Source of the DNA: an uncultured Anaerolineaceae bacterium
Lineage (GTDB): Bacteria > Chloroflexota > Anaerolineae > Aggregatilineales > Aggregatilineaceae
Assembly: GCA_964655405.1 (NCBI GenBank)
Contig: CAZZNC010000001.1
Coordinates: forward strand, 1-29,965
Direction: 5' to 3'
Length of the DNA stretch: 29,965 nt
Every line of letters begins with the position of its first letter. Position 1 is the stretch's first letter. The translations under genes and the position numbers were made by a program. The notes beneath the pieces are model-generated. The model had not been told where the DNA came from and did no database searches. It saw only the letters and a program-made list of their open reading frames with translations. This document shows, piece by piece, positions 11,002 to 28,560 of the stretch.

Positions 11002-12159
11002 TCACCCCTGCTCCTCGGCGCTCGCAATCGGGAGGTGAATGGTGAACGTGCTGCCTTCCCCGACCGTGCTTTCTACCGACACGTGCCCGTCGTGCAATTG
11101 CACCACGCCTTTGACAATGGCTAACCCCGCTCCCGCGCCCTGGTCTTCGTAAATCTCGCGGTCAATTTGGTAAAAGCTCTTGAAGATGCGTTCCCGTTCT
11201 GCTTCCGGAATCCCGCGCCCTTGATCCATGACGCTGAAGCACACTTCGTCCCCTTCTTGATACGCACGGAGTGTGATGGTGGTTTCTGGCTGCTCGGTAA
11301 ATTTAACGGCGTTGTCTACCAAACACTCGACGGCAGTGGTCAGATACTCGCTGTCGGCCACGATAGGCGGCAGGTCGTCTTCGATTTGTACCTCCAGCGC
11401 GGCTTGTTTTTCCCGCGCCTGGTCACGGTACTGGCTGGCAACGACGTGCAAAACCGCCGCATAGTTGGAAAACAGCTCGCGTCGCCAAGAAAACGTGTCG
11501 CGGGCTTCTCCGGTTTCCAGCTCGGCCAGCAAAATGAAATTTTCGACCAGGCGGCGCAAACGGTTGGCGCCAGCGTTGATGCCGTGCAAGAAAGTGCGCA
11601 TGTCGCTCACTTGCAAATCTTCAGGGTCGCGCTCCAACAGGTCGCCGTAGTCGCGGTTGAGCATGTCAGAATACGCAACAACATAAGTGAGAGGGGTGCG
11701 CATTTCGTGGTTGATGATGGTGAGCACTTTGCGTTTGATTTCCGCCATCTGTCCTTCGAAGTATTGCCCCACTTCGCGGATGCGGCGCAACTTGGCGTCC
11801 ACGATGGTCAGCAATTCCTGTGCTTCGAAAGGTTTGACGATATAGTCGTCCGACCCCATGCCCTTTCCCAACATCACGTCGTCGCGTTCGCCTTTGGCGG
11901 TCAGGAAAATAAACGGGATTTTGACCCAGGCAGGGTTGGCGCGCACGGCCTGGAAAAACTCGTAGCCGTCCATGCGAGGCATCATAATATCGGAAAGGAT
12001 CAGGTCTGGGGGGGCCGCTTGCTGCTGCAAAAGCTCTAAAGCGACCTGCCCGTCCGCCGATGTCCACACGTCGTAGCCGTGTATTTCTAGAATCTCACGG
12101 AGGCCTTCCAATAAGTGCAGATCATCTTCAACAATTAGGATGGTTCCTTTACCGCTCAT
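11002..12159 (-). CDS. Hybrid receiver-histidine kinase (REC-HisKA-HATPase)
   Basis: N-terminal receiver ILIVEDD...DLILSDIMMP...FLTAK...DDYIVKPF; H-box INHEMRTPL; LVDNAVKF; DQGRGI; GAGAGL. Start overlaps the upstream kinase stop by 11 bp. Confidence 0.94.
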   Translation of the reverse strand: MSGKGTILIVEDDLHLLEGLREILEIHGYDVWTSADGQVALELLQQQAAPPDLILSDIMMPRMDGYEFFQAVRANPAWVKIPFIFLTAKGERDDVMLGKGMGSDDYIVKPFEAQELLTIVDAKLRRIREVGQYFEGQMAEIKRKVLTIINHEMRTPLTYVVAYSDMLNRDYGDLLERDPEDLQVSDMRTFLHGINAGANRLRRLVENFILLAELETGEARDTFSWRRELFSNYAAVLHVVASQYRDQAREKQAALEVQIEDDLPPIVADSEYLTTAVECLVDNAVKFTEQPETTITLRAYQEGDEVCFSVMDQGRGIPEAERERIFKSFYQIDREIYEDQGAGAGLAIVKGVVQLHDGHVSVESTVGEGSTFTIHLPIASAEEQG

Positions 12160-16793: not shown

Positions 16794-18473
16794 TCAGGCC
16801 GAGGTGCGCAGCTTGCGTGCGATGAACACCACCGCAACCAGGCCCGCTGCCGCAATAGCCAGCACGGTCAAACCGTTGGTGCCAGAAAGTGCCCCATCGT
16901 CGCCGGTCATATCCGAGAAGAAACCCGTCTCAGACAGCGCGGTGGGTAACGTTCCGGTGACTTCTTCCTGTGGCACAGGGGACAAAATGTCCACGGGCGC
17001 CGCGGTCAGTGTTTGGGCGGCGAACTCGGCGCGTGCGGTGGCGGTTTGTTCGATGCCACTTGGACCGGTCGCTGTGGGCGGGATGGGGGTAGGCGTTGGT
17101 CCACCGATCTCAAAGGAAATTTCCGGCATTTCGCCACTTTCCGGCACGTTGACTTGCAAAACCAGCGGCTCATTGGCGGGCACGATAGCTTGCAGCTCCG
17201 GCGGCAAGGAATCGTATTCCAGCTCCAGCCAATAGGTTCCGGGGTCTAGCGAGCCGAAGTCAATCACGCCCTCTAGGGACGACATAAGCGTATCCATCAA
17301 CGGGTCGCCGGTGTCCGGTGTTGGGGTGGGGGCAGGCGTGCCGCCATCTTGCGCCAGCACATCCGGCGCGCCGATGTCTTCCCCGCCCGTGCTGGGACGG
17401 TATGCGCCTTCGGCGGGCGTAGGTGTTTTTGTTTCGGCCTCGGTTTCGCCTGTTTCCTCTTGCGGCGGCAAAATCGCCACGTTCAGCCGCAAGCGGTAGT
17501 CACCCTGACCGGCCAGGCTGCTTACGGCTATCGTGTAAACGCCGTCGGCGGGCAGCTCAAATTCGGTGATGAGTGCATTCGAAGCGTCGCCGCCGTCGTC
17601 ATCGCTGGTCAAGCGGCGTCCGTCCGGCGCGTACAGTTCCAGGTAGGTATCCAATTGGGCAGGGTTGACGGCTTCGGCGCTGATGGAAACTTTGTCGCCC
17701 GTTTGGCCGGCAAAACGCCAATCAACGCGCTCGCCCATGCTCAGCGTGCCCTCGCCGACCTCGCCGTAAGCAAGGGAGACCTCTTCTTCGGGGGCTTCTG
17801 ATGAAGTTTCGGTTGCTTCGCCACCAGCTTCGGCGACCATGCGGTCGGCGGGGTCAAATTCGCCATCGCCGTCATCCTGATACAACCGCACACGCACGTT
17901 GCTCACCGGCTGCCCTTCTTGAGAAACCAAGCGCACAACCAGGCGGCGCGCTTCGGCGGTTGCAGTCGCAGCGGCGTTCAGTACCTCTTGCGTCGCTGTT
18001 TGCAGGGCGGCGGCGGTTTGCGTGGCGGCGGCGGCCTGGGTCGCGGCCTCAGCGGTTTGGGTTGCTGCGACCGCTTGCTGCGTTTGGGCGGCGAGGAATT
18101 GCGCTGTGCTGGTTTGCGCGTCAAGGAAGATAGCCGTTTCGGTCACTTCGGCGATGCGCGCCAGCGCGGTCAGCGTGGCATTGTTCTTGGAAATCTCGGT
18201 CGAGTTCAGCGCCGCAATCTGGGTGCTCGTCTTGTCATAGGAGGAGAGTTTGCCGCGACTGGCAAAAGCATAGCCCACCAGCACGACAATCAGCAGCAGC
18301 ACCAACAGCGCCATGATACCAGCCACGGCTTTGAAGCTACGGCTTACCCCACCCGTCTCGCCGCTATCGTCGAACTCGGCCAGGAATTCTTCATCTTCCA
18401 TGACCCCAAACGGCGGCTCTTCTTCTAGGAAGTCGAAATCATCTCCCAAGCCAAAGTTTTCTTCGTCGCTCAT
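16794..18473 (-). CDS. Cell-surface protein: acidic N-tail, TM, Ala/Thr linker, SdrD-B/Cna-B-like domain with inserted PPC domain, C-terminal LPXTG-like (LSETG) sorting signal
   Basis: Start reassigned to ATG 18473 (GGAGG upstream), 559 aa. TM AVAGIMALLVLLLIVVLVGYAF; PPC-like WRFAGQTGDKVSIS...DTYLELYAPDGRRLTSDDDGG...LPADGVYTI; LSETG (16923-16937), hydrophobic stretch, RKLR. Confidence 0.7.
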   Translation of the reverse strand: MSDEENFGLGDDFDFLEEEPPFGVMEDEEFLAEFDDSGETGGVSRSFKAVAGIMALLVLLLIVVLVGYAFASRGKLSSYDKTSTQIAALNSTEISKNNATLTALARIAEVTETAIFLDAQTSTAQFLAAQTQQAVAATQTAEAATQAAAATQTAAALQTATQEVLNAAATATAEARRLVVRLVSQEGQPVSNVRVRLYQDDGDGEFDPADRMVAEAGGEATETSSEAPEEEVSLAYGEVGEGTLSMGERVDWRFAGQTGDKVSISAEAVNPAQLDTYLELYAPDGRRLTSDDDGGDASNALITEFELPADGVYTIAVSSLAGQGDYRLRLNVAILPPQEETGETEAETKTPTPAEGAYRPSTGGEDIGAPDVLAQDGGTPAPTPTPDTGDPLMDTLMSSLEGVIDFGSLDPGTYWLELEYDSLPPELQAIVPANEPLVLQVNVPESGEMPEISFEIGGPTPTPIPPTATGPSGIEQTATARAEFAAQTLTAAPVDILSPVPQEEVTGTLPTALSETGFFSDMTGDDGALSGTNGLTVLAIAAAGLVAVVFIARKLRTSA

Positions 18474-18522
18474 AAACCTTTTACCCTCCGCGATAGCCGC
18501 AATAGTCGCCCGCCCCGACGCC

Positions 18523-19608
18523 TTACCCCAACAGCTCCAAGTTGGCGAGAGGAATCGGCACGACGCGATCCGCAGACAGGCGTACTTGTGCGCACGGCAC
18601 ACGCAGCCCATTTTCTAAGACCTGGGGCGTTTGGGGCAACGCTTCCACCGTGCCCACCAGCCCGTCCCAGGGCGCGCGCGTAGCTCGCACCTGCGTCCCC
18701 ACCATGAGAGCTTGGTCAGGGGAAGGAGCAGGCGGGGCTACCCCTTCTGCAGGGAGCGGGATCATAATTTCCGGACGATCGTCTGCCCAGCGTTCCGGTT
18801 GTGCCGCGTCAAAAGCGGCTTGCCGCCCCATATTTTCTTGCAACAGCCGATAGATCAATGTCGTGGGACGACGCGACCCGAACCCGTCGGTTAGCAGTAC
18901 AGGGAATGTAAGCTGCATTGCAAATTCGCGCAAGTCCGCCGACATGCTCGGCGCCACCACACCGGCCACGCCTTGCTGTCGTGCCACCATCAGATCGCCA
19001 GCGTTGATCGGTGCAGGACTGATGATAACGACGTTGCGATACTCAGAAATGCGCGGGTCCATTTTGCTCAGGCCCGCGAAGCCATCCGGCGGCAAAAAGC
19101 GATAAGCGCGGTAAGCATAGCGCCCGTTGCCCCACATACATTGGATCAGCGCGCCGCGTCCGGTGATGGTGACTTGGTGCGTTTCGGCAGCGCTCACCTG
19201 CCCGGGCACACGTGCTTTGATCTCCACCATCTGGCGGGACTCTTGCAGCACCAAGCGGCTGCCGAGGATGGCCGTCACCACGCCTTCCACCGGAGAATAC
19301 AAAATCTTGGTACGTCGTCCCTTGCCGGTGCGTGCCAGCTCTTGCCCGAACTGCACGCGCATTCCTTCTTCAACGCGCAGCACGTCGTCCATGCGTTGTG
19401 CGGTCGGGTTCTTGAGCTTCAGTTCGGCGGCCACGTCCACGATATGATAGTCGCCCAATATCTCACCGGCCAGCACGGTTTGCACCGCGTCTACAGGTTC
19501 GTTGAGCACCACTTGCGACGCATCCGCGATGGCGTGCGGAGGCAACTTGCGCGTGCGGATGACGGTGGTAAAGCCCTGCACGACCGTCAATTCGGGATAG
19601 TAGGGCAT
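18523..19608 (-). CDS. Conserved-looking hypothetical protein with barrel-sandwich-hybrid (RnfC-N/biotinyl-lipoyl-like) segments and a C-terminal KOW/SH3-like domain; GlmL-cluster partner
   Basis: 361 aa, GAGGAG RBS. VEEGMRVQFGQELA...ILYSPVEGVVTAI...IKARVPGQV; C-terminal VGTQVRATRAPWDGLVGTV...PIPLANLELL. Confidence 0.7.
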   Translation of the reverse strand: MPYYPELTVVQGFTTVIRTRKLPPHAIADASQVVLNEPVDAVQTVLAGEILGDYHIVDVAAELKLKNPTAQRMDDVLRVEEGMRVQFGQELARTGKGRRTKILYSPVEGVVTAILGSRLVLQESRQMVEIKARVPGQVSAAETHQVTITGRGALIQCMWGNGRYAYRAYRFLPPDGFAGLSKMDPRISEYRNVVIISPAPINAGDLMVARQQGVAGVVAPSMSADLREFAMQLTFPVLLTDGFGSRRPTTLIYRLLQENMGRQAAFDAAQPERWADDRPEIMIPLPAEGVAPPAPSPDQALMVGTQVRATRAPWDGLVGTVEALPQTPQVLENGLRVPCAQVRLSADRVVPIPLANLELLG

Positions 19609-19615
19609 GGTTCGC

Positions 19616-21451
19616 TTACTCCTCTTCCGCCAACACGGCCAATGCCTCCGGCGTCAAGTCCTCCACGCTCGGCAAGAGTTCTTCTTCCGGCCACTTTTCC
19701 ATCGGTTCGGGAGCAACTTGCGCGGGGGCGCTCATGGCTTGCAACCAGGCCATCAACTGTGCGGCGCGGTCTCGTGGACGCGGCATTGCCAGCGGTCGCC
19801 CACGTGCGTCAAAGATCAGCCCGGCCACACCGGTAACCATGCGGCGCTTGAGCCGACGTTTGCCCGCAATGGAAAGTCCTCGGCCCAATTGGACGCGCAC
19901 TTCGACCGGTTCACCGGGGAGCAACGGCGCGCGCCAAATTTCTCCGCTGCGCACGACATGGGTCAATTTTTGTTTGTTGCCATAACGGATCTGTACCTTC
20001 ATCGCCTTGCGTCCGCGCCGCTTGCGCCCCAGCGGGCAAAAAGCTGTGCCCAAATGCACCAGGCCGCCGCTTTCCAGCGCCTGCACGGTGACGAGGGGCT
20101 TGAGGTACGCTACCACGCCCAGCGAAGCAACCAGGTTGTACGGATCGAGGTACAAATCTGCCAGGCCCACCGGCTGCAAAGCGTCCAGCAGCAACATGGC
20201 GGCCATCGCCGGATGTTGCGCATCGGTCAGCACAGCGCCTGCTGCAATGATGGGGTGGAAGTGGGGCAGCAGCGCGCTTTCGCCCGTGCCCCACATCGGA
20301 CGCGCGTCCGTGACCAGCTCCCGCACGATCTCGCGTGCCAATGCCTGCTCGATCAACATCTCTTCGGTGGTGCCGGGAACGGTGGCCGGTCGCAGTTCCT
20401 TATTGTGGGCGTAGTTGCGCAACGTTTCCGTGTCCATCTCGAAGGGCAACCATTGTTGCACGCGCGCGGGCGTGATTGTCTCCAGCGCCTGCACGATGTT
20501 GTGTCCCACGCCCAAATCGGTGCGAATGGTGTAGACGGGCTGGCGGTTCACGCCGGCGAAGATCAGACTGTTGGCGCTGCCCACGTCCACGCACAACGGC
20601 CCCATGCCCGGGCCTGGCAGGGTTGCCATGTAGCGCATGGCGCTAATGTAGCCCTGCGTGGTGGGGACAAGTCCTACGTCGCTTTGCCGTCCCACCTCGT
20701 CGAAACCGCCCGTGCTTTTGCTGCGGTACTCGTCGTAAACCAGCGCCAGCTCGATCTGCGCGGGGAAAAGCTGCTCGTTTTGCGCATTGGGGCGCACGTT
20801 CTTGGCCGTAAAAATGGTGGTATATGGCTCCAGCCGTGTTTTGACCGCTCTCCGCAAGATTTGGTTGCCGGCAAAAAGCACCGTCGGCGGCGTGCCGCGA
20901 TGCACCAGCGAAAGCGCCAGTTCCACTTTGCCGATCAATTCCTTGATCAGTTCCTCTGCCCCGTCGTCTGTCCCGCCGACGATGAAGATCATGTCGGAAT
21001 TGCTGTTCAGCAGCGCGTTGATCTGCTCTTCTTCGCTGCGTGTATCTTCCGGCGTCAGCGTGTCGGTGATGGTGACATACGTGCCGGCCAACGCATGGCG
21101 TGCGGCTTCTAGGCTCAGCTCTTCGGTCAGCCCTACAAGGAAGACCCTCATCGGGCGGCCTGCGCTCGACGTGGCAAGGAACGCTCCCACCCCTTGCCCG
21201 CTGTCGTCGTCCGACAAAAATAGTGTTTGCCCTTGCGGATCGAGCAAGGTGCGACCGGTGAACTCGGCCATTTGCGCGGCGGCATGTTCCAAACCCAACC
21301 CCACGCGAGAAAGCGGCGGCTCGGCGGTTGTGCGCACACGCGAGGCGGCCACCAGGCGATATTGCCCTTCTACCAAGTCCAGCAGCAACAGCCGCGTATG
21401 CACGCTGCCCAAGTCTGTGACCAGGATCGAGCTTGTGTCTTGTTCCGCCAT
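19616..21451 (-). CDS. Glutamate mutase L (GlmL/MutL)-family ASKHA-fold protein, long form
   Basis: 611 aa. Phosphate-1-like LVTDLGSVHTR, SSAGRPMRV (SSA.GGL-like), IFIVGGTDDG, phosphate-2-like CVDVGSANS, RTDLGVG, IIAAGAVL, C-terminal GLIFDARGRPL. Confidence 0.8.
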   Translation of the reverse strand: MAEQDTSSILVTDLGSVHTRLLLLDLVEGQYRLVAASRVRTTAEPPLSRVGLGLEHAAAQMAEFTGRTLLDPQGQTLFLSDDDSGQGVGAFLATSSAGRPMRVFLVGLTEELSLEAARHALAGTYVTITDTLTPEDTRSEEEQINALLNSNSDMIFIVGGTDDGAEELIKELIGKVELALSLVHRGTPPTVLFAGNQILRRAVKTRLEPYTTIFTAKNVRPNAQNEQLFPAQIELALVYDEYRSKSTGGFDEVGRQSDVGLVPTTQGYISAMRYMATLPGPGMGPLCVDVGSANSLIFAGVNRQPVYTIRTDLGVGHNIVQALETITPARVQQWLPFEMDTETLRNYAHNKELRPATVPGTTEEMLIEQALAREIVRELVTDARPMWGTGESALLPHFHPIIAAGAVLTDAQHPAMAAMLLLDALQPVGLADLYLDPYNLVASLGVVAYLKPLVTVQALESGGLVHLGTAFCPLGRKRRGRKAMKVQIRYGNKQKLTHVVRSGEIWRAPLLPGEPVEVRVQLGRGLSIAGKRRLKRRMVTGVAGLIFDARGRPLAMPRPRDRAAQLMAWLQAMSAPAQVAPEPMEKWPEEELLPSVEDLTPEALAVLAEEE

Positions 21452-21457
21452 GCGCCC

Positions 21458-22135
21458 CTAGCCCCCCACGCGATCTAAGATGAAGATCACTTGTTCGCGG
21501 ACAACGTCGCTAAATACGCTCAGGCTGGCGATGATCGCGCCTGCATAGAGTGCACCCAGCGTCACCATGACAAAAGCGCGCCCTACCACGCTGATCCCTT
21601 GCAGCCAGCGCGGGCGTGTGACTTCGCCTTGCCGTTCCACTGCCAGGTATTGGAAGTAGAGCAACGTGGAAATGACCCCCACGATCATAATCGCCCCGTC
21701 GAGCTTATCGCGTTGCACCCAGCGTCCTGTTTCGCGCACGAGTGGCGCTATCGTTCCGCTCACCGCGCCGACCAGCGCCACCGCCAACCCTACGCCGATC
21801 AGAAACGCCAACTCCAGGTCTCCGATGGGGGCCAGCCGTGCAGAAAACTTGAGCAACAGCAGTGCGCCGCCCAAAAAAGGCAACGCGCCCAGCGCCCGCA
21901 GCCCCATCAGGGTTGTTTGGTCGTATGCGTCAGCGTCGGCCAGCAAGGTTTGGTGCAACCAGGGCACGAGCACGCTTTCCACGGCTACGATAGCGATATA
22001 CGCCGTCGCTACGCCCACCAGCACATGCAGCGCCAAACGATACAGCACGTTGTCGCTCAGCAAATAGCTGAAGATCATCAGCGTTAGGACGAGCGAGACC
22101 CATCCGGCGATCAGGTCTAATGTGTCTGGACTCAC
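21458..22135 (-). CDS. Polytopic membrane protein (about 6 TM) of the DUF6754/GlmL-like cluster
   Basis: Start reassigned to GTG 22135 (GGAGG RBS; GTGA overlap with the upstream stop), 225 aa. LTLMIFSYLLSDNVLYRLA, ISTLLYFQY, GRAFVMVTLGALYA. Confidence 0.8.
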   Translation of the reverse strand: MSPDTLDLIAGWVSLVLTLMIFSYLLSDNVLYRLALHVLVGVATAYIAIVAVESVLVPWLHQTLLADADAYDQTTLMGLRALGALPFLGGALLLLKFSARLAPIGDLELAFLIGVGLAVALVGAVSGTIAPLVRETGRWVQRDKLDGAIMIVGVISTLLYFQYLAVERQGEVTRPRWLQGISVVGRAFVMVTLGALYAGAIIASLSVFSDVVREQVIFILDRVGG

Positions 22136-25100
22136 CGGTGCTCCCTCCGTAACAACCCGCGCAGTACATTGAAGAGCAAGCCTAACGTAATCAGCAGCGC
22201 CGCCACCAACGCGCCCCACGCCATGCTGTGCCATTGTGCCGCTTGGGGATCGGGCACGTTGGGGGCATCCGGCGGCGGTGTGTAAGGCGTGCGTGCCGCG
22301 GCGTTATAGGCCGCGTCGTAGCGGAAAGCGTCCCGCAGACCGGCCAAATAGCCCGCGTAGCCGTCTTTTTGCACATAAGGCGTCGTCAACGGCTCGGCGG
22401 CTGCGGTGACCAGCGCCACTTTGTGCAGCGGCAGCTCTTTGAGTTGCTCTGCCCAGGTGCGCACATCGTCCAGCCCTTCGCCCACCACTACCACCAGCAC
22501 CACATCTTGCCCCACATCGGCGATCAGCAAATTGGTTGGGTCGCCGCGCAAATCGTACTCGAAGGCGGGTTGCACAGCCAAGTTGCCCTCGGCGTCGTGA
22601 AAAACTTCGCGCAGCGTGCGCACACCGACTGCCTCGCCGGAAAGATATCCCAGCACGTAATAGTCCTCGCCCCAGCGCAACATTTCCTCGCCCTGGCCGC
22701 GCACTTTGAGCAAGGCGGGGTCTTCGGTCAGCGGGGCCATGACCGCCGTTGTGTGGAACGCTCCCGCCGGATCAGTGCTCAGCAACACAGGGATCGCGTT
22801 GCGCGCCAGCACGCCGCGTAAAACGGCTTGGGCCAGCGGATCGAGTTCACCGGCAGCGGTAGGGGCATACTCGAACGCGAAAAGCACATAATCCCCCGCG
22901 TCCAGCGCGTTGATCTCGTCGGCCACAGCTTGCCGTGCCCCGTCGAGTGCTGGTGGGTCGGCGGCGATGTGCAGCACGTCGGTCAGGAAAGGCGCAACCA
23001 GCGCAATCAGCAGCACCAACGCCACCACGACGCGATCCGGCTTGAGCTTGGCGCGGCGCGCGACCTTACGACGCTCGGCAGCCTGTGCGGACTCGTGTGC
23101 TTCGGCTTCCTCGGGCGTCATTTCGTCGAAAAGCCCCATCGTCGGCTCGCCGAAAGTGTCGCGTTCTTCTTCCAATTCCTCTTCTTCGGCGGCCACCAGT
23201 TCCAAGATCGCTTGCAGACGTTCGGCGCGTGCTTGTTGGGTAGGTGTAATCGCCAGTTCGGTGACCGGTTGCAAGGTTACTTTTTCCGGCAAGACGGCTT
23301 CAGCCGGTGGCAAAGCGCCTCCGATGCCCGCCAACGGCCCTTCTTCCGGCGGGGCAGACGGTTCACCTTGCTTGACAAGTTGCATCACACGCTCACGAAA
23401 CGCTTGCAATTTGCGTGGCAATTCGTGGACTGGACGCTGCTGTATGTCCATGTGCACACCGCTTGCCTGCACGGTCACCGGCAAGTTTGCGGGGCGCATT
23501 TCCTCGATCCATTCCGGCTGCACGGCTTCCGGCTCGGCAAGGGGGGCTGGTGTGGGAGGAACAAACGGCTCGGGTTCGGTGAAGACTGGGGCTTCTTCAA
23601 CGGCCATCGCTGCGAAGTCCGGCACGCCGCCAATTTCTTCCGGATGGGCGGCTTGTTCACTTTCGCCAAAAAGCGCCTCGATCTGCCGTGTGCCTTCGTC
23701 TGGAATGAGCACCGGTTCTTCCTCGGAAGCCTCCGGAGACAGCTCGGCGAGCATGGCGTCTAGGTCTTCGACGACGGCGGGCAGATTGTCTGCCGGTACG
23801 GTCAGTGCTGCCGAAACGCCCAGCAGATTTTCCAGCGCTTGACTATCCAGCGGGGCGGTTTCCAGCACCTCGGCCTCGGCAGGCGCCGGTGCTTCTTGGG
23901 CTAGCGCGGGCGGTTCGGCTTCAGAATGCGCGGTAGCTTGCTCGGCACTCGGCGCTTCCATCTCTGCGGCGTCGGCTTCGGAAAACACGTCCAGCCAATC
24001 CAACGCATCTTCGTCGGCAACGGTGCTCGCTTCCGGCGGCACTGTGGCCGGCGTGGTGACGTGCATTCCTCCGGCTATCGCTTCTCCTTCGTCCATGGCC
24101 TCACGCAGCCAGCTTGGTACGTCCTCGTCCTGAGCGGGCACAGCGTCCGCCGGAGGCTCGACCGGCTCGAAGCGCTCGACGAAGTCCTCGATGGGCGCGC
24201 GTTGTTCGGCGGAGGGTTGCTTTTCCGGTGCGGCTTCCGCCAACCAGTTCGGCATGTCGGCGGCGGCGAGTTCTTCGGTTTTCTCGGTGGATGGTGTTGC
24301 TTCACTGAGCAGTGCTTCCAAATCCGGCAAGGCTTTGTCAGCGGATGGCGTTTGTTCTTCCGGCGCGGCCTCTGCCAACCAGTCTGGCATGTCGCCAACG
24401 ACGAGTTCCTCGGCTTCCGAGGCTGCTTCGGCTGCGGAGGGGGCTTCGCCGAGCAACGCTTCCAAATCCGGCAAGGCTTCGTCGGAGGAAGGCACTTGTT
24501 CTTCCGGCTGAACCCGCAGCCGTTTGATAGACAAGCGGGGAGCTTCTGGCTCTGGCTGTTCCGGCGGGGCTTCTGCGCCACCGAACGCAGCCATCCAATC
24601 TTCGTTGCCCAGGTCTGCGCTGCCTTTCATCCAATCCGGCAAATCCGGCTCGGCGGCTTGCTCGGGGGCCTCCTGCGTGGAGGTGCCGAACGGCTGGGTG
24701 AAGGGGTCTTCGGGCATGTCCAACTGCTTGGCCCAGTCCGGCACTTCGCTCTCGTCGGGCTGGGGCATCTCTGCTACCGGACTGACCGGTTCCGGCTCCG
24801 GCAAATCTTGCGGTAACGCGATTTCTTCTTCTTGAGCCTGCGCGACAGCGTCTTGGTAGGCTTCCCACTCGTCGTAGGTCATGCCTTCTGGAATTTCTGA
24901 GGCAGGGCTTTCGGCGGCGGTTTGTTGCGGCTGCTGCAACCAGTCGGGCAAGGCTTCTTCGGCAGCCTCGGCTGTCTCTTCGCGGGACGGAGCTTGGGCC
25001 TCTTCCTGTCCGGCGGCCTGCATCCATGCAGGCACAGCATCCGCGGCAGGCGACGGGGTTTGCTCACCGGCTAACTGTTCCCAGGGCGGCGCTTCGGCTG

Positions 25101-25233
25101 GCGCACTGGGAGACGGCGGGGATTCTCCGGCTTTGGTTTCCCAGGCCGGTTGTGTTGCGTTTCCCTCGTCGGCAGACGCTGGCGTTTCTTCGTTGTTCGT
25201 TTCGTCGTCCCAGAAGTTCCACTCATCTGACAT
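22132..25233 (-). CDS. 1033-aa protein: about 730-aa acidic Pro/Ala/Glu-rich disordered region with repeated PxW motifs, then a TM-alpha/beta-TM membrane domain
   Basis: Start reassigned to ATG 25233 (MSDEWNFW). TM RVVVALVLLIALVAPFL; domain DYVLFAFEYAPTAAGELDPLA; GYLAGLRDAFRY; C-terminal TM HSMAWGALVAALLITLGLLFNVL. Confidence 0.8.
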   Translation of the reverse strand: MSDEWNFWDDETNNEETPASADEGNATQPAWETKAGESPPSPSAPAEAPPWEQLAGEQTPSPAADAVPAWMQAAGQEEAQAPSREETAEAAEEALPDWLQQPQQTAAESPASEIPEGMTYDEWEAYQDAVAQAQEEEIALPQDLPEPEPVSPVAEMPQPDESEVPDWAKQLDMPEDPFTQPFGTSTQEAPEQAAEPDLPDWMKGSADLGNEDWMAAFGGAEAPPEQPEPEAPRLSIKRLRVQPEEQVPSSDEALPDLEALLGEAPSAAEAASEAEELVVGDMPDWLAEAAPEEQTPSADKALPDLEALLSEATPSTEKTEELAAADMPNWLAEAAPEKQPSAEQRAPIEDFVERFEPVEPPADAVPAQDEDVPSWLREAMDEGEAIAGGMHVTTPATVPPEASTVADEDALDWLDVFSEADAAEMEAPSAEQATAHSEAEPPALAQEAPAPAEAEVLETAPLDSQALENLLGVSAALTVPADNLPAVVEDLDAMLAELSPEASEEEPVLIPDEGTRQIEALFGESEQAAHPEEIGGVPDFAAMAVEEAPVFTEPEPFVPPTPAPLAEPEAVQPEWIEEMRPANLPVTVQASGVHMDIQQRPVHELPRKLQAFRERVMQLVKQGEPSAPPEEGPLAGIGGALPPAEAVLPEKVTLQPVTELAITPTQQARAERLQAILELVAAEEEELEEERDTFGEPTMGLFDEMTPEEAEAHESAQAAERRKVARRAKLKPDRVVVALVLLIALVAPFLTDVLHIAADPPALDGARQAVADEINALDAGDYVLFAFEYAPTAAGELDPLAQAVLRGVLARNAIPVLLSTDPAGAFHTTAVMAPLTEDPALLKVRGQGEEMLRWGEDYYVLGYLSGEAVGVRTLREVFHDAEGNLAVQPAFEYDLRGDPTNLLIADVGQDVVLVVVVGEGLDDVRTWAEQLKELPLHKVALVTAAAEPLTTPYVQKDGYAGYLAGLRDAFRYDAAYNAAARTPYTPPPDAPNVPDPQAAQWHSMAWGALVAALLITLGLLFNVLRGLLRREHR
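24224..24508 (-). repeat. Intragenic tandem duplication (two units, 48 and 45 codons)
   Basis: GCTTCCAAATCCGGCAAGGCTT identical at 24314 and 24458 (144 bp apart); GCCAACCAGT at 24239 and 24374 (135 bp apart). Encodes PEEQ.PS.D.ALPDLEALL.EA...EEL...DMP.WLAEAA twice. Confidence 0.9.
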
Positions 25234-25267: not shown

Positions 25268-25918
25268 TTAGCCGCGCAGTGTGCGGTCTTGCCCCATGAG
25301 CACACGCACACCGACCATCAGCGTTCCCAGGCCCACGCCTAGCAAAATGCCGCGCGCGCCTGCGCCAACAGGAATAGCTACGATCCAATCGCGCACGTCG
25401 GCCAACTTTTCTGTGCCGTTCACAGGCACCCAACCCAACAACACGACGATCACCGTCAGCGTGAAGAGTGTGTGCCACAACGTGACCTCGCGGCGCATGA
25501 GGCGATAGGCCGCGTAGACCAAGAAGAACACCAACAGACCGGCCAATGCCGATTCTATGCTGACCTGCACCGCCTCAAAGAGCCGCGTGCTCATCATCTC
25601 ACCGGAAAGTTCACCGCGCCACACGTCCGCACGATCCACTATACGCAGTGTGACCGTGCCCGCCAGTGCCAGCACCACGACCACGCTGTAGGGCCAGCCG
25701 TGCTCTCGTTGCCGCACACGGCCCAGATGCACCGCCAACACGTTCAACACACCGATCAACGCAGCTAACGCAGCCGTGACCATCACGATGCGCAACAGAA
25801 AATCGGCAGTGTGTGCAGTTACAGACCCGGGTTTTGCCAGCAAGCCGATCAACGTGATCAACGCGATACTCAGCGCGGTGACGGTTGCCAGAAAATGCAC
25901 CAAACGATGGCGTCTCAC
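25268..25918 (-). CDS. Polytopic membrane protein (about 6 TM) of the DUF6754/GlmL-like cluster
   Basis: 216 aa, GTG start. Hydrophobic segments with ALIGVLNVL..HL, LAGLLVFFLVYAAYR, C-terminal PVGAGARGILLGVGLGTL..GVRVLMG.DR. Confidence 0.8.
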   Translation of the reverse strand: MRRHRLVHFLATVTALSIALITLIGLLAKPGSVTAHTADFLLRIVMVTAALAALIGVLNVLAVHLGRVRQREHGWPYSVVVVLALAGTVTLRIVDRADVWRGELSGEMMSTRLFEAVQVSIESALAGLLVFFLVYAAYRLMRREVTLWHTLFTLTVIVVLLGWVPVNGTEKLADVRDWIVAIPVGAGARGILLGVGLGTLMVGVRVLMGQDRTLRG

Positions 25919-25991: not shown

Positions 25992-26723
25992 TTACAACAA
26001 AGCCTGGAGTAGTTCCACCACGATGCCCGCGATCACCAACCAGCGTAACGCTTCAATGGCGATCACGCCGCCGCGTTCCAGGGCGTTACCGTCCAGGTAA
26101 GCCGGCCCAACGTAAAGTTCTTCGCCCAAGAGCACATGTTCGGCTTGTGCAAAGGCGACTGCTTGCCCTTCCAGCCAATCGCTGTGCGCGATCATGTGCT
26201 GGTCGTGCCGCAGGGCACTTTCGCCGAGCAATGCCAGCTCTTCACGGTAGCGCCCCAGCAAAATCAAGCTATGTTCGCGGCGATCTGCGCTCAAGCTGGC
26301 GACACCTGCGGCAAACGCAATGCCCTCAGGATACCAAGCAGCCAGACGACTGTGCCATTTTCCCGCCCGTTGCCGATATTCGTAAGCGCGGCGCAAGGTT
26401 TCTTGCGCCAAGGACAGAGCCAGCGGGTTGGCCAGCGTGAAGGTGGGTGTCCGCTCGGCGATGGCAATCCGTTCGGCCAGGCGGAAAAACACCTCCGCGC
26501 CGGTCAAAGCACTGATTGTGCTTGCTGTGGCCGGTGCGCTGGTTCCCAGCGAAAAATGCAGCCGGTGGCCGCTCTCTACGGCGTCGGCGGCCAGCAGGGG
26601 CAGGGCTTCATAAGCGGGAATGCGACGCAAGCGCAGCCCAAAACGTCGCACGATGAAGCGCCCGACCAATGTTGCTGCAAACGCAATCGCCAGCAATACA
26701 ATCGTCAAATTGGCGTCGTTCAT
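25992..26723 (-). CDS. DUF6754-like protein (N-terminal TM, alpha/beta domain, C-terminal TM)
   Basis: 243 aa, GAGGGG RBS, ATGA overlap with the upstream gene. LRRIPAYEAL...AVESGHRLHFSLG, VLLGEELYVGPAYL and IEALRWLVI recalled as DUF6754-type patterns (from memory, not searched). Confidence 0.72.
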   Translation of the reverse strand: MNDANLTIVLLAIAFAATLVGRFIVRRFGLRLRRIPAYEALPLLAADAVESGHRLHFSLGTSAPATASTISALTGAEVFFRLAERIAIAERTPTFTLANPLALSLAQETLRRAYEYRQRAGKWHSRLAAWYPEGIAFAAGVASLSADRREHSLILLGRYREELALLGESALRHDQHMIAHSDWLEGQAVAFAQAEHVLLGEELYVGPAYLDGNALERGGVIAIEALRWLVIAGIVVELLQALL

Positions 26724-27174: not shown

Positions 27175-28560
27175 ATGAGCGAGTTTGCCATCGGCACGAT
27201 TGTTGGCGGATACCAAATTTTGGACATCGTCGGGCAAGGCGGCATGGCGACCGTGTACCGTGCGCATCAGCTTTCGATGGATCGTGATGTGGCGCTCAAG
27301 GTGTTGCCTCGCCATCTGCTCCGCCAAGCCAACTCGCTGGAACGCTTCAAGCAAGAAGCCAACATCATTGCGCGCCTGGAACATCGCGCCATCGTGCCCG
27401 TTCACGACTACGGCGAGCATGACGGGCTGCCCTATATTGTCATGCGATATATGGACGGCGGCTCGGTGGCCGAGCTGTTGTTGCACGGCCCGCTTCTTCC
27501 GCAACGCGCCCTGCACATCGTGGAGCAGATCGCGCTTGCGCTGGATTATGCGCATCAAAAGGGCGTGTTGCATCGTGACCTGAAGCCCAGCAACATCTTG
27601 CTAGACGCCAGCGGCGATGCTTATATCACGGACTTTGGCATCGCGCGCATCTTGGGAGAAAATGCCCCTTCGCTCACCACCAGCGGGGTCGTCGGCACCC
27701 CTTCGTATATGTCTCCGGAGCAAGCCCAAGGGCACGATTTGGACGGACGCAGCGATATTTACGCGCTGGGCGTGGTGCTCTTTGAGATGCTCACGGGGCA
27801 ACGTCCTTTTGAAGGGGAAACACCTTACAGCGTGGCGGTTAAGCACGTCACCGAGGCGCCGCCTTCAGCGTGCAAGCTCAACCCGAACTTGCCGCCGAGC
27901 GTGGAATGTGTGCTTTACAAGGCGTTGGAAAAAGACCGCGAACGCCGTTACCCGACTGCCGCAGAGCTTGCCCAGGCGCTGCGCCAAGCCCTGGAACATC
28001 CGCACAACGTGCCGACTGACCCTTCCAAAGCCGAAACCGACCCTTCGCTCAACCAGGCGCTGCGCGAAGGGGCAGCCCGACATGGGCAACCTTTGCCTTC
28101 GGCCTATGTGCCGCCGGTGGTGCAACCGGCTGCTTCCGGGCGGGCCTTGACGCCTAATTTGCAGGTGTTGCCTTCGTATGTGCCCACCGGCGCGCGTCCT
28201 TACGGGCGGCCCTGGCAACGTGTGCATCGCCGTTCTGCCCAGCGTGTTTCTTGGACAACCTGGTTGCTGATTGGATTGGCCGTTGGCGGGTTTTTGCTGA
28301 TCATGCTTGTTGGCAGCTTGTACTATTGGTTGGAGCTGTCCCCTACCCCCGTGAGCAGCAACGATTATGCCGCCACCGCCGTCTATAAACTCACCGCGAC
28401 ACGCCAGGCTATCGAGGCGCAACACGATAGCGCGCTTACAACCGCGCCGACGCTTTCGCTGCGCACCCCTACGCCCACTGTCAGCGCCACGTCAATTCCG
28501 ACCAACACCCCCTCACGCTTGCACGCCTCGCTCACCGTTGAGCACACGCCCGTTCCGTAA
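27175..28560 (+). CDS. Membrane-anchored Hanks-type Ser/Thr protein kinase (PknB-like catalytic domain, Thr/Pro-rich tail)
   Basis: GQGGMATVY, VALKVL, HRDLKPSN, DFGIAR, GTPSYMSPEQ, DIYALG; Pro-rich linker; TM WLLIGLAVGGFLLIMLVGSLYYWL; T/P-rich C-terminus. Confidence 0.96.
   Translation: MSEFAIGTIVGGYQILDIVGQGGMATVYRAHQLSMDRDVALKVLPRHLLRQANSLERFKQEANIIARLEHRAIVPVHDYGEHDGLPYIVMRYMDGGSVAELLLHGPLLPQRALHIVEQIALALDYAHQKGVLHRDLKPSNILLDASGDAYITDFGIARILGENAPSLTTSGVVGTPSYMSPEQAQGHDLDGRSDIYALGVVLFEMLTGQRPFEGETPYSVAVKHVTEAPPSACKLNPNLPPSVECVLYKALEKDRERRYPTAAELAQALRQALEHPHNVPTDPSKAETDPSLNQALREGAARHGQPLPSAYVPPVVQPAASGRALTPNLQVLPSYVPTGARPYGRPWQRVHRRSAQRVSWTTWLLIGLAVGGFLLIMLVGSLYYWLELSPTPVSSNDYAATAVYKLTATRQAIEAQHDSALTTAPTLSLRTPTPTVSATSIPTNTPSRLHASLTVEHTPVP

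What the first reader, a model, noticed from the sequence alone, without database searches (positions are those of the whole stretch)
23036..25233. About 730-aa acidic disordered arm with ~10 PxW motifs resembling the FtsZ C-terminal peptide, co-encoded with an ASKHA-fold protein
Seen: ten P-x-W motifs (QPAWE, APPWE, VPAWM, LPDWL, VPDWA, LPDWM, MPDWL, MPNWL, VPSWL, QPEWI) plus DEW/EDW/LDW variants in Glu/Asp/Pro/Ala-rich sequence ahead of the first TM. DVPSWLR (24103-24123) lines up with the FtsZ tail consensus D-I-P-x-F-L-R. Known: the FtsZ tail, on an acidic disordered linker, docks onto FtsA (ASKHA fold), SepF and ZipA. Inference: this arm is a multivalent membrane-tethered scaffold that recruits the operon's own actin-fold GlmL-like protein, or divisome partners, i.e. 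a possible cytoskeleton-like or polar-organising hub.
Basis: partly seen in the sequence, partly recalled or inferred. Interest (0 to 1): 0.72.

Follow-up and report, generated by a model that had tools for sequence, protein, structure and literature searches.

The report
Acidic disordered arm with tryptophan docking motifs
A membrane protein found only in filamentous Anaerolineae bacteria carries a 733-residue, very acidic, floppy cytoplasmic arm with about ten conserved Pro-x-Trp mini-motifs that look like repeated docking sites, inside a conserved gene cluster of unknown function.

Summary
Gene 22132-25233 (- strand, 1033 aa) has an N-terminal arm of 733 aa with net charge -136 and 15 Trp. 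Ten Trp sit in P-x-W motifs, against 1.9 expected; 0 of 20,000 shuffles reached ten.

The motifs are selected. Trp is 82% conserved in 12 homologs, against 40% for the arm. In 34 long arms from other genomes, 49% of 716 Trp have Pro at -2. Phe almost never replaces Trp (84 versus 3). AlphaFold2 models most of residues 1-573 as disordered, with short helices at several motifs.

The family is limited to class Anaerolineae and sits in a fixed cluster: DUF6754, 6-TM protein, this protein, 6-TM protein, GlmL/MutL-like ASKHA protein. A sister clade keeps only an N-terminal DDFNWL peptide. The long-arm clade adds a 361-aa protein and an acidic-tailed membrane protein.

Best reading: a cytoplasmic, multivalent Trp-motif docking arm. 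The partner is unresolved; it is likely the ASKHA protein and/or the 361-aa protein.

The FtsZ-tail idea is not supported: the position is wrong, the motif is repeated, and Trp stands where FtsZ has a conserved Phe. No paper in the searched library mentions DUF6754 or PF13941.

The parts
22132..25233 (-). Arm protein gene, 1033 aa: cytoplasmic arm, TM1, extracytoplasmic alpha/beta domain, TM2, short basic tail
   Evidence: ORF and translation. No Pfam, NCBIfam or PADLOC hit. Full-length homologs of 934-1671 aa.
23035..25233 (-). Acidic arm, aa 1-733, net charge -136, 15 Trp
   Evidence: Composition. In the AF2 model most of aa 1-573 has pLDDT below 50.
25201..25233 (-). N-terminal acidic-aromatic peptide MSDEWNFWDDE, the element shared by the long-arm and short-arm clades
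   Evidence: Most untruncated long-arm homologs start M[SPN]D[DE]xN[LF]FDDD. All 40 short-arm homologs start with an M[NSDKT][DE][DE]..[NS]WL-type peptide, mostly MNDDFNWL or MSEEFNWL.
25135..25155 (-). PxW motif 1, TQPAWET (aa 27-33)
   Evidence: AF2 places a short helix at aa 30-33.
25075..25095 (-). PxW motif 2, EAPPWEQ (aa 47-53)
   Evidence: P and W are conserved in 12 homologs. AF2 helix at aa 50-53.
25018..25038 (-). PxW motif 3, AVPAWMQ (aa 66-72)
24934..24954 (-). PxW motif 4, ALPDWLQ (aa 94-100)
24823..24885 (-). Conserved helix GMTYDEWEAYQDAVAQAQEEE (aa 117-137), the only confidently structured element in the distal arm
   Evidence: T, E, W, E, Q and two further columns (A, E) are invariant in 12 homologs. 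AF2 helix at aa 120-138 with block pLDDT up to 91.
24727..24747 (-). PxW motif 5, EVPDWAK (aa 163-169)
   Evidence: PDW is invariant in 12 homologs. AF2 helix at aa 166-170.
24625..24645 (-). PxW motif 6, DLPDWMK (aa 197-203)
   Evidence: P, D and W invariant.
24580..24606 (-). Trp motif without Pro, NEDWMAAFG (aa 210-218)
   Evidence: W is invariant.
24367..24477 (-). Repeat unit 1, ALPDLEALL...DMPDWLAEA (aa 253-289), which contains PxW motif 7 (24373-24393)
   Evidence: The unit is present in 1, 2 or 3 copies in close homologs.
24232..24333 (-). Repeat unit 2, ALPDLEALL...DMPNWLAEA (aa 301-334), which contains PxW motif 8 (24238-24258)
   Evidence: The two units share 102 of 141 aligned bases. 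AF2 helix at aa 329-333.
24163..24186 (-). Near-invariant island DFVERFEP (aa 350-357)
   Evidence: Seven of eight positions are invariant in 12 homologs. Present in most of the remoter homologs.
24103..24123 (-). PxW motif 9, DVPSWLR (aa 371-377), the FtsZ-tail look-alike
   Evidence: P.WLR is invariant in 12 homologs. P.WLR is found in 27 of 34 long arms; P.FLR is found once. AF2 helix at aa 374-382, block pLDDT 72.
23983..24006 (-). Invariant LDWL island, ALDWLDVF (aa 410-417)
   Evidence: AF2 helix at aa 414-417.
23470..23523 (-). PxW motif 10 and the start of the membrane-proximal module, VQPEWIEEMRPANLPVTV (aa 571-588)
   Evidence: AF2 models a beta-hairpin at aa 585-598.
23035..23469 (-). 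Membrane-proximal conserved module (ELP..L.AFRE, GPLAGI.GALP, long helices), ending in the basic stretch RRKVARRAKLKPDR
   Evidence: Conservation. AF2 helices at aa 607-622, 664-693 and 707-727. The basic stretch places the arm in the cytoplasm by the positive-inside rule (inference).
22972..23031 (-). TM1 (aa 735-754)
   Evidence: Hydropathy. AF2 helix at aa 732-756.
22342..22938 (-). Extracytoplasmic alpha/beta domain (aa 766-964), the most conserved part of the protein
   Evidence: Block pLDDT mostly about 76-92. No significant PDB match by sequence or by fold. This domain defines the family in 80 genomes.
22162..22218 (-). TM2 (aa 1006-1024), followed by RGLLRREHR
25992..26723 (-). DUF6754 protein, first gene of the cluster: TM, ~180-aa soluble domain, TM
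   Evidence: PF20539, E 3.8e-16. Syntenic in nearly all loci that extend far enough.
25268..25918 (-). 216-aa polytopic (6-TM) membrane protein
21458..22135 (-). 6-TM membrane protein ('p258'). Its likely start is the GTG at 22135, which overlaps the arm gene's TGA stop as GTGA
   Evidence: The homolog in the short-arm clade starts at the equivalent position.
19616..21451 (-). GlmL/MutL-like ASKHA protein, 611 aa, with a basic C-terminal domain (aa 461-560, net +20) and an acidic tail
   Evidence: PF13941, 179 bits. Below the GlmL equivalog cut-off. Charges. Present in every locus that extends far enough.
18523..19608 (-). 361-aa cytoplasmic protein: barrel-sandwich hybrid domain, alpha/beta domain, KOW-like barrel. 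Found only with long arms
   Evidence: AF2 mean pLDDT 89.9. Weak fold matches to NusG and to Spt5 KOW domains. Weak RnfC_N/NqrA_N hits. Co-occurrence 34 of 34 against 0 of 40.
16794..18473 (-). Membrane protein with an acidic Phe-rich N-terminal tail (MSDEENFGLGDDFDFLEEE...), a TM, a PPC domain and a C-terminal TM. Its likely start is the ATG at 18473
   Evidence: PF04151. Tail conserved across the long-arm clade. Start position.

Best explanation
The arm is a cytoplasmic, intrinsically disordered, polyanionic tether. It carries an array of Trp-centred short linear motifs with consensus [DE]-[DE]-x-P-D-W-[L/F/M]. Each motif starts a short helix. I propose each is a docking site for a folded cytoplasmic partner, so that one membrane protein can hold or concentrate many copies of that partner at an Anaerolineae-specific membrane complex. 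That complex is DUF6754 protein, 6-TM protein, this 2-TM protein with an outward-facing alpha/beta domain, a second 6-TM protein, and a GlmL/MutL-like ASKHA protein.

Shown:
- the composition of the arm;
- the excess of motifs over chance;
- Trp-specific conservation against diverging spacers;
- copy-number change by unit duplication;
- predicted disorder;
- fixed gene order in about 80 genomes;
- two clades, one with a single N-terminal DDFNWL-type peptide and one with 8-21 motifs in most complete arms.

Inferred: cytoplasmic topology, and that the motifs bind a protein.

Most speculative: the partner.
- One candidate is the ASKHA protein. It is the only fully soluble protein shared by both clades, and its C-terminal domain is basic.
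- The other candidate is the 361-aa barrel-sandwich/KOW-like protein, which occurs only where the arm is long.
- The acidic Phe-rich tail of the downstream PPC-domain membrane protein may use the same receptor.
For: Motif excess: 10 P-x-W against 1.9 expected, 0 of 20,000 shuffles.

Conservation in 12 full-length homologs: Trp 0.82 identity, motif core 0.74, rest of arm 0.43.

34 long arms from other genomes: 716 Trp, of which 49% have Pro at -2 (background 13%), 49% have Asp at -1, and 59% have L, F or M at +1. Phe, Tyr, Leu and Met show no Pro at -2.

The 30 complete arms recovered by an exhaustive search of 1.84 billion representative proteins have 3-16 P-x-W against 0.7-4.9 expected. All 29 hit sequences that I read, and at least 36 of the 40 hits overall, are members of this same family.

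The 45-aa unit ending in MPDWLAEA is present in 1, 2 or 3 copies in homologs 61-66% identical to the window protein. A remote homolog repeats a ~22-aa TPDWFSEPAAT-type unit about four times.

AF2: most of aa 1-573 has pLDDT below 50, with short helices at six of the W motifs.

Synteny in 82 loci. N-terminal peptide conserved in both clades. The 361-aa protein is present in 34 of 34 long-arm loci with enough downstream DNA and in 0 of 40 short-arm loci. The ASKHA C-terminal domain has net charge +12.3 in the long-arm clade and +6.8 in the short-arm clade.
Against: - No binding was tested, and no complex prediction was possible with these tools.
- The link between the long arm and the 361-aa protein follows one split in the tree, so it is a single evolutionary event and not repeated co-variation.
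- The ASKHA charge difference is also clade-level. There is no correlation within the clade (rho 0.20, p 0.33), and the deep-branching locus L002 has +1.
- GlmL-family proteins are not known to bind peptides or to polymerise (my knowledge).
- A charge of -136 could serve a function that needs no specific partner.
- Only the 82 fetched loci (~20 kb each) were scanned for other proteins with the motif. A partner encoded elsewhere in the genome is fully possible.
Confidence: 0.5

Rival explanations
1. FtsZ-tail mimic. The motifs, above all DVPSWLRE, copy the FtsZ C-terminal conserved peptide and dock FtsA, SepF or ZipA-like divisome proteins. That would make the arm a division or polar-organising hub.
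For: One motif per arm fits [DE]-x-P-x-W-L-R-[ED] and is invariant in 12 homologs. It is found in 27 of 34 long arms. Like the FtsZ peptide, it sits in a disordered segment and is modelled as a short helix. FtsZ tail features are described in PMC9939409.
Against: - The FtsZ peptide is defined by conserved D, P and F (PMC9939409). Here the aromatic residue is always Trp: P.WLR 35 against P.FLR 1, and [DE][IVLM]P.W[LMF] 84 against 3 with Phe, although Phe is commoner in the arms.
- The motifs are internal, repeated and N-terminal. There is no tubulin fold.
- Most motifs are PDW[LFM] without the basic residue.
- No divisome gene is in the window or in the conserved cluster.
- The short-arm clade lacks the WLR motif.
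Confidence: 0.07
2. No dedicated folded partner. The arm acts through bulk physical properties. It could be a polyanionic entropic brush or spacer at the membrane. It could instead be a sticker-and-spacer chain, in which Trp residues are stickers that drive clustering or co-condensation with basic proteins or cations.
For: - Extreme charge (about -107 to -308 in most arms; -36 to -71 in the remotest four) and Ala, Glu and Pro-rich spacers of very variable length, with arms of about 625-1500 aa.
- Trp makes up 2.3% of the arm, evenly spread.
- The ASKHA protein has a basic domain.
Against: A brush or generic sticker would not need a fixed P-D-W-[LFM] context with acidic residues at -4 and -5. 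It would also not exclude Phe and Tyr from that context. Several islands without Trp (DFVERFEP, GMTYxEWE helix) are near-invariant, which points to specific recognition. The strong net negative charge opposes self-association and binding to anionic membranes (inference).
Confidence: 0.2
3. Juxtamembrane signalling linker of a receptor-like protein. The outer alpha/beta domain senses something in the envelope, and the arm motifs recruit signalling proteins such as kinases or two-component proteins, not the cluster's own proteins.
For: - In three homologs (L035, L039, L041) the arm follows an N-terminal Hanks-type Ser/Thr kinase-like N-terminus. This was confirmed as a Pkinase domain in L035 and L039 (E 4e-26 and 7e-28). 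That gives the classic kinase, linker, TM, sensor layout.
- A multi-GAF histidine kinase lies downstream in many long-arm loci.
- A Ser/Thr kinase gene lies divergently upstream in the window.
Against: The kinase fusion is limited to one sub-lineage. The neighbouring Ser/Thr kinase of the window is not syntenic elsewhere. The tight, translationally coupled operon with four membrane proteins and an ASKHA protein looks like a stable complex more than a signalling relay.
Confidence: 0.12
4. Compositional accident. The P-x-W pattern falls out of a Pro-rich low-complexity sequence and has no function.
For: Pro makes up 13% of the arm, so some P-x-W are expected (1.9).
Against: 0 of 20,000 shuffles reach the observed count. 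The pattern is Trp-specific, and it is conserved across arms whose spacers no longer align.
Confidence: 0.01

Closest known systems
FtsZ C-terminal linker plus conserved C-terminal peptide ('grappling hook')
   Same: A short acidic-x-Pro-x-aromatic-Leu motif on a long disordered tether, which becomes ordered on binding. One motif per arm (P.WLR[ED]) resembles it in sequence.
   Different: - N-terminal arm of a 2-TM protein, with no tubulin fold.
- 8-21 copies in most complete arms instead of one.
- Trp invariant where FtsZ has a conserved Phe.
- The arm is several times longer (FtsZ tails are about 68-104 residues, PMC9939409) and far more acidic.
- No divisome context.
Eukaryotic endocytic scaffolds with motif arrays (Eps15 DPF repeats, epsin DPW repeats that bind AP-2 appendages). 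From my knowledge; analogy only
   Same: Long disordered region with many copies of a three- to four-residue Asp/Pro/aromatic motif, giving multivalent, avidity-based recruitment at a membrane.
   Different: No homology. Bacterial. The motif order is P-D-W, not D-P-W. The arm is fused directly to transmembrane helices. The partner is unknown.
PilN-PilM and FtsN-FtsA: a conserved N-terminal cytoplasmic peptide of a bitopic membrane protein docks an actin-fold (ASKHA) protein. From my knowledge
   Same: A conserved N-terminal cytoplasmic peptide on a membrane protein encoded next to an ASKHA-fold protein. The peptide is the one element shared by both clades.
   Different: The ASKHA protein belongs to the GlmL/MutL family (PF13941), not to PilM or FtsA. 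The peptide sequence is unrelated. The peptide type is multiplied into an array in the long-arm clade. Binding is untested.
GlmL/MutL accessory proteins of glutamate mutase (PF13941)
   Same: The co-encoded 611-aa protein matches the full Pfam domain (positions 1-446 of 450).
   Different: It scores 75.7 against the 475-bit equivalog cut-off. It has an extra basic C-terminal domain and an acidic tail. No mutase genes are nearby. It is always embedded among membrane-protein genes.

Membership tests
FtsZ C-terminal conserved peptide | Lies at the extreme C-terminus of a tubulin-fold FtsZ, after a disordered linker | tested here: not met
   The motifs lie in the N-terminal arm of a 2-TM protein. 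No Pfam hit of any kind on the protein.
FtsZ C-terminal conserved peptide | Eight-residue stretch with conserved Asp and Pro (PMC9939409) | tested here: met
   DVPSWLR at 24103-24123. P.WLR is invariant in 12 homologs and the acidic residue before it is mostly conserved.
FtsZ C-terminal conserved peptide | Conserved Phe as the aromatic residue (PMC9939409) | tested here: not met
   Trp is invariant. P.WLR 35 against P.FLR 1, and [DE][IVLM]P.W[LMF] 84 against 3 with Phe, in 34 arms.
FtsZ C-terminal conserved peptide | Binds FtsA, ZipA or SepF | not testable with these tools
   No complex prediction or binding assay was available.
Multivalent short-linear-motif scaffold (functional class) | Long intrinsically disordered region | tested here: met
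   AF2 with a 21-sequence alignment: 559 of 1033 residues have pLDDT below 50, nearly all within aa 1-661.
Multivalent short-linear-motif scaffold (functional class) | Repeated short motif conserved while the spacers diverge | tested here: met
Multivalent short-linear-motif scaffold (functional class) | Motif copy number evolves by gain and loss of units | tested here: met
   1, 2 or 3 copies of the 45-aa unit in close homologs. 3-21 P-x-W per complete arm across the family.
Multivalent short-linear-motif scaffold (functional class) | A folded partner that binds the motif | not testable with these tools
   Only indirect co-occurrence data.
GlmL/MutL (the co-encoded ASKHA protein) | Pfam PF13941 domain above the gathering score | tested here: met
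   179.1 bits against a cut-off of 27, covering profile positions 1-446 of 450.
GlmL/MutL (the co-encoded ASKHA protein) | Reaches the NCBIfam equivalog score for GlmL | tested here: not met
   75.7 bits against 475. The glmL_fam subfamily model gives 46.5 against 204.
GlmL/MutL (the co-encoded ASKHA protein) | Encoded with glutamate mutase subunits | tested here: not met
   No mutase domains among the 19 window ORFs scanned or in the conserved cluster.
PilN/FtsN-type N-terminal anchor peptide for an ASKHA protein | Conserved N-terminal cytoplasmic peptide on a membrane protein co-encoded with an ASKHA protein | tested here: met
PilN/FtsN-type N-terminal anchor peptide for an ASKHA protein | Homology of the two proteins to PilN/PilM or FtsN/FtsA | tested here: not met
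   No PilM, PilN, FtsA or FtsN Pfam or NCBIfam hits on either protein.

The most novel reading that the evidence does not exclude
The cluster encodes an undescribed membrane machine of filamentous Anaerolineae. In it, a GlmL-family actin-fold ATPase has been taken over from cofactor-repair duty and is gathered at the membrane by an array of Trp motifs. This would be a bacterial counterpart of eukaryotic motif-array scaffolds, possibly organising envelope growth, septation or filament architecture.
Probability: 0.15. Interest if true: 0.85.

Novelty: new variant of a known kind. Interest (0 to 1): 0.6.

Why it matters
Motif arrays on disordered arms are a central organising principle in eukaryotic membrane traffic, but they are barely documented in bacteria. 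This is a clean natural case:
- a defined Trp motif;
- 1 to about 21 copies across relatives;
- a sister clade with only one copy;
- a fixed set of candidate partners encoded next door.

That makes questions about multivalency and avidity directly testable.

The case also points to a conserved, unstudied gene cluster of a widespread but poorly understood bacterial class. It suggests a non-metabolic role for a GlmL-family ASKHA protein. One homolog of the 361-aa protein is annotated from the named species Aggregatilinea lenta, so an experimental host may exist.

Tried and rejected
- **Family libraries.** Pfam, NCBIfam and PADLOC on the arm protein gave no hit.
- **Solved structures by sequence.** PDB searches with the loop-domain profile, the ASKHA protein and the 361-aa protein found nothing meaningful.
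- **Solved structures by fold.** Foldseek of the full model against PDB gave only generic alpha/beta matches, best E 5e-3. The 361-aa model gave only weak domain-level matches to NusG, a PA-like domain and KOW.
- **Literature.** PDWL returned only unrelated hits. DUF6754 and PF13941 returned zero papers. Anaerolineae plus FtsZ returned nothing that says whether these organisms have FtsZ. The new actin-like family FcmB (PMC12645912) is ParM-derived and unrelated.
- **Tandem repeats.** Tandem Repeats Finder did not report the diverged 45-aa unit, only an 18-bp array. The unit was confirmed at protein level instead.
- **Charge co-variation.** Arm charge against ASKHA C-terminal domain charge within the long-arm clade gave no signal.
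- **Phylogenetic profile.** The profile linking the 361-aa protein to the long arm collapses to one split in the tree.
- **Same motif elsewhere.** No other ORF in the 82 loci has the motif array. The exhaustive protein search found only members of this family.
- **Sequencing runs.** Only two DNA metagenome runs hold the sequence (epibiont, hydrothermal vent). I did not make a separate RNA-only search, so I have no transcription evidence.

Full report
**1. Observation**

The finding lies inside one gene, 22132-25233 on the - strand. The longest ORF starts at a GTG at 25311. The ATG at 25233 gives MSDEWNFWDDE, which matches the N-termini of the homologs. This start lies 34 nt after the stop of the upstream gene.

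The product is 1033 aa.
- Residues 1-733 (23035-25233) contain Ala 127, Glu 125, Pro 94 and Asp 44. The net charge is -136, with 15 Trp.
DVPSWLR is at 24103-24123.
- Shuffling the arm gives 1.9 P-x-W on average and a maximum of 8 in 20,000 trials. For P-x-W[LMIFV] the observed count is 7 against 0.37 expected.
- No other ORF in the window has more than three P-x-W.

**2. Anatomy of the protein**

After the arm comes a basic stretch (RRKVARRAKLKPDR), then TM1 (aa 735-754), a ~250-aa loop, TM2 (aa 1006-1024) and the tail RGLLRREHR. By the positive-inside rule, and because there is no signal peptide, the arm and the tail are cytoplasmic and the loop faces outward. This is inference.

AlphaFold2 with a 21-sequence alignment gives mean pLDDT 54.
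- Most of aa 1-573 is below 50.
- One exception is a helix at aa 120-138 (GMTYDEWEAYQ..., block pLDDT up to 91).
- Short helices begin at W motifs: aa 30-33, 50-53, 166-170, 329-333, 374-382 (block pLDDT 72) and 414-417.
- The membrane-proximal part (aa 574-730) has a hairpin and three helices.
- The loop is a confident alpha/beta domain, with block pLDDT mostly about 76-92.

The loop domain has no significant relative in the PDB by sequence or by fold. The protein has no Pfam, NCBIfam or PADLOC match.

**3. Are the motifs conserved?**

Two searches of the large protein collection found about 25 relatives. An exhaustive HMMER search of 1.84 billion representative proteins with the arm found 40 proteins. 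All 29 sequences that I read, and at least 36 of the 40 hits overall, have the same architecture.

In an alignment of 12 full-length homologs:
- mean identity to the window residue is 0.82 for Trp;
- it is 0.74 for the P, W and +1 positions of the motifs;
- it is 0.43 for the rest of the arm, and 0.40 over aa 1-573.

The conserved islands are:
- the N-terminal peptide;
- PPWE and PAWE;
- GMTYxEWE..Q;
- PDW..QLD;
- LPDWMKG;
- EDWMAAFG;
- MPDWLAEA;
- DFVERFEP;
- [DE]xPxWLR[ED];
- LDWL;
- QPEW[IV]EE[ML]RP..LPVTV;
- ELP..L.AFRE;
- GPLAGI.GALP.

In 34 long arms taken from other genomes there are 716 Trp.
- 49% have Pro at -2 (background 13%).
- 49% have Asp at -1.
- 59% have Leu, Phe or Met at +1.
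- Acidic residues are enriched at -4 and -5.
- Phe, Tyr, Leu and Met show no Pro at -2 (7-9%).

The motif is therefore [DE][DE]xPDW[LFM], and it is Trp-specific.

The ~45-aa unit ALPD[LI]EALL...MPDWLAEA occurs once, twice (window) or three times in homologs 61-66% identical. A remote homolog repeats a ~22-aa TPDWFSEPAAT-type unit about four times. Arms range from about 625 to 1500 aa, with 3-21 P-x-W.

This is how short linear motifs in a disordered region behave: conserved cores, free spacers, and copy-number change.

**4. Genomic context and distribution**

A scan of one genome per species found 90 relatives of the loop domain. The best 80 were kept. All are from Chloroflexota metagenome-assembled genomes, and those classified further belong to Anaerolineae lineages: Anaerolineales, Thermoflexus, Aggregatilineales and Phototrophicaceae.

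Gene order is fixed:
1. DUF6754 protein
2. 216-aa 6-TM protein
3. this protein
4. a ~225-aa 6-TM protein
5. PF13941 (MutL/GlmL) ASKHA protein

In the window, the 6-TM gene after the arm gene most likely starts at the GTG at 22135. That GTG overlaps the arm gene's TGA stop as GTGA, which suggests translational coupling.

The ASKHA protein matches the whole Pfam domain (179 bits). It falls far below the GlmL equivalog cut-off (75.7 against 475), and no mutase gene is near. It has an extra C-terminal domain with net charge +20 in 100 residues, followed by an acidic tail.

**5. Two clades**

A tree of the ASKHA protein splits the loci into two clades.

- **Long-arm clade.** It includes the window and the deep branches L002 and L069. 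Arms are 690-1500 aa.
- **Short-arm clade.** It contains 40 loci, mostly Phototrophicaceae and Aggregatilineales. The N-region is a ~160-210-aa, near-neutral stretch with one or a few Trp (one in 32 of 40 loci). One of them lies in the N-terminal peptide MNDDFNWLxY[DE]E. In the one locus checked (L045), the outward loop has an added SH3_3 domain.

The N-terminal acidic-aromatic peptide is thus the shared element. Many long-arm proteins start M.DD.N.FDDD.L.PDW[LM], so a first PDW motif is part of it. The simplest history is one ancestral acidic-Trp-Leu peptide that was multiplied into an array.

The long-arm clade also has two extra genes.
- **A 361-aa cytoplasmic protein.** A profile finds it in 34 of 34 long-arm loci with enough downstream DNA and in 0 of 40 short-arm loci.
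- **A membrane protein with an acidic Phe-rich N-terminal tail** (MADDELFENLEDFGDLEEEPSFG...; in the window MSDEENFGLGDDFDFLEEE), a TM and, in many cases, a PPC domain.

The 361-aa protein is modelled with confidence (pLDDT 89.9). It has a barrel-sandwich hybrid domain, an alpha/beta domain and a C-terminal KOW-like barrel. It has only weak matches to known folds and families.

Because long arm and extra genes follow one split in the tree, this association counts as a single event.

**6. Mechanism**

The best-supported reading is a cytoplasmic, polyanionic, disordered tether with an array of Trp docking motifs. Such an array can hold several copies of a partner at the membrane complex.

Candidate partners:
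- **The ASKHA protein.** It is the only fully soluble protein common to both clades. Its basic C-terminal domain is more basic in the long-arm clade (+12.3 against +6.8). This difference is clade-level only, with no correlation within the clade.
- **The 361-aa protein.** It is present only with long arms, and it has an SH3-like KOW barrel.
- **The ~180-aa soluble domain of the DUF6754 protein.** The basic stretch after its first TM suggests that it is cytoplasmic (inference).

None of this was tested for binding. I give the docking-array reading 0.5.

**7. The FtsZ-tail idea**

One motif per arm, [DE]xPxWLR[ED], does resemble the FtsZ peptide. The defining features of that peptide are nevertheless not met.
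- The FtsZ peptide is a single element at the C-terminus of a tubulin fold, with fully conserved Asp, Pro and Phe (PMC9939409).
- Here the motifs are N-terminal, internal and repeated.
- Phe essentially never takes the place of Trp: 84 against 3, and P.WLR 35 against P.FLR 1, although Phe outnumbers Trp 1045 to 716.
- No divisome gene is in the window or the cluster.

I could not retrieve FtsZ, FtsA or SepF from these genomes, so the idea is unsupported rather than excluded (0.07).

**8. Other rivals**

- **Partner-free brush or sticker-and-spacer chain (0.2).** This fits the charge and the variable length. It does not fit the strict, Trp-only sequence context or the near-invariant islands without Trp.
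- **Signalling linker (0.12).** In three homologs (L035, L039, L041) the arm follows a Hanks-type kinase-like N-terminus, confirmed as a Pkinase domain in two of them. A multi-GAF histidine kinase is often downstream. The neighbouring Ser/Thr kinase of the window is not syntenic elsewhere.
- **Compositional accident.** Refuted.

**9. Novelty**

I found no paper on DUF6754 or PF13941 in the searched library. The cluster cannot be filed under the divisome, type IV pili, glutamate mutase or known defence systems.

The principle, multivalent motif arrays on disordered arms, is known. The motif, the protein family and the system are new. I therefore rate it a new variant of a known kind. A categorically new machine is the most novel reading that is not excluded (0.15).

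**10. Source**

Near-identical DNA is held in an epibiont metagenome run, and partly in a hydrothermal-vent metagenome run. I did not make a separate RNA-only search, so I have no transcription evidence.

Noticed in passing
window 16794-18611 (-); likely start at 18473: The PPC-domain membrane protein at the end of the cluster has its own acidic, Phe-rich N-terminal cytoplasmic tail (MSDEENFGLGDDFDFLEEEPPFG...), followed by GG[IV]SR[TS]F and a TM. The tail is conserved across the long-arm clade. Its opening resembles the arm protein's N-terminus (MSDE.NF..DD), so the two may share a receptor.
   Followed up: partly
L035 6923-, L039 7055-, L041 (arm gene N-termini): In one sub-lineage the arm protein begins with a Hanks-type Ser/Thr protein kinase domain. 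Pfam Pkinase gives E 4e-26 in L035 and 7e-28 in L039; L041 has only a tblastn match. The layout is kinase, PxW arm, TM, alpha/beta loop, TM.
   Followed up: partly
L002 1779-3110: In a deep-branching relative the arm starts with a zinc ribbon (CPMC...CRHC), followed by many PDWL, PSWL and PTWL motifs. The assembly has a run of N inside the arm.
   Followed up: partly
L045 9365-11362: The short-arm protein examined (L045) carries a Pro/Thr-rich linker and a bacterial SH3_3 domain in the outward loop. This hints at cell-wall contact. Other short-arm proteins are of similar length but were not scanned.
   Followed up: partly
window 19616-21451 (-), aa 461-611: The GlmL/MutL-like protein has an extra C-terminal domain with net charge +20 in 100 residues (GRKRRGRK..., GKRRLKRR...), followed by an acidic tail with one Trp (PEPMEKWPEEELL...). 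The domain is basic in both clades, and more so in the long-arm clade.
   Followed up: partly
window 12149-16408 (-) and 11002-12159 (-): A 1419-aa multi-GAF/PAS histidine kinase lies downstream on the same strand, followed by a hybrid kinase/receiver gene. The GAF kinase is syntenic with the cluster in about 20 long-arm loci.
   Followed up: partly
window 10107-10853 (-): A PspA/IM30 family gene (membrane-stress or membrane-remodelling protein) lies about 6 kb downstream of the cluster. No tblastn match to it was found in the other loci.
   Followed up: partly
window 27175-28560 (+): A Hanks-type Ser/Thr kinase gene is divergently oriented upstream of the cluster. This adjacency is not conserved in the other loci.
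   Followed up: yes
L001 3110-7565: In a close relative the arm is split into three ORFs in different frames. These are either assembly frameshifts in a repetitive GC-rich region or a decaying gene. L015 shows a similar interruption.
   Followed up: no
window 22132-22135: The arm gene's TGA stop overlaps a GTG (as GTGA), which is the likely start of the next 6-TM gene. The ORF list instead gives a longer 258-aa reading from the ATG at 22234, which overlaps the arm gene by about 100 nt.
   Followed up: yes
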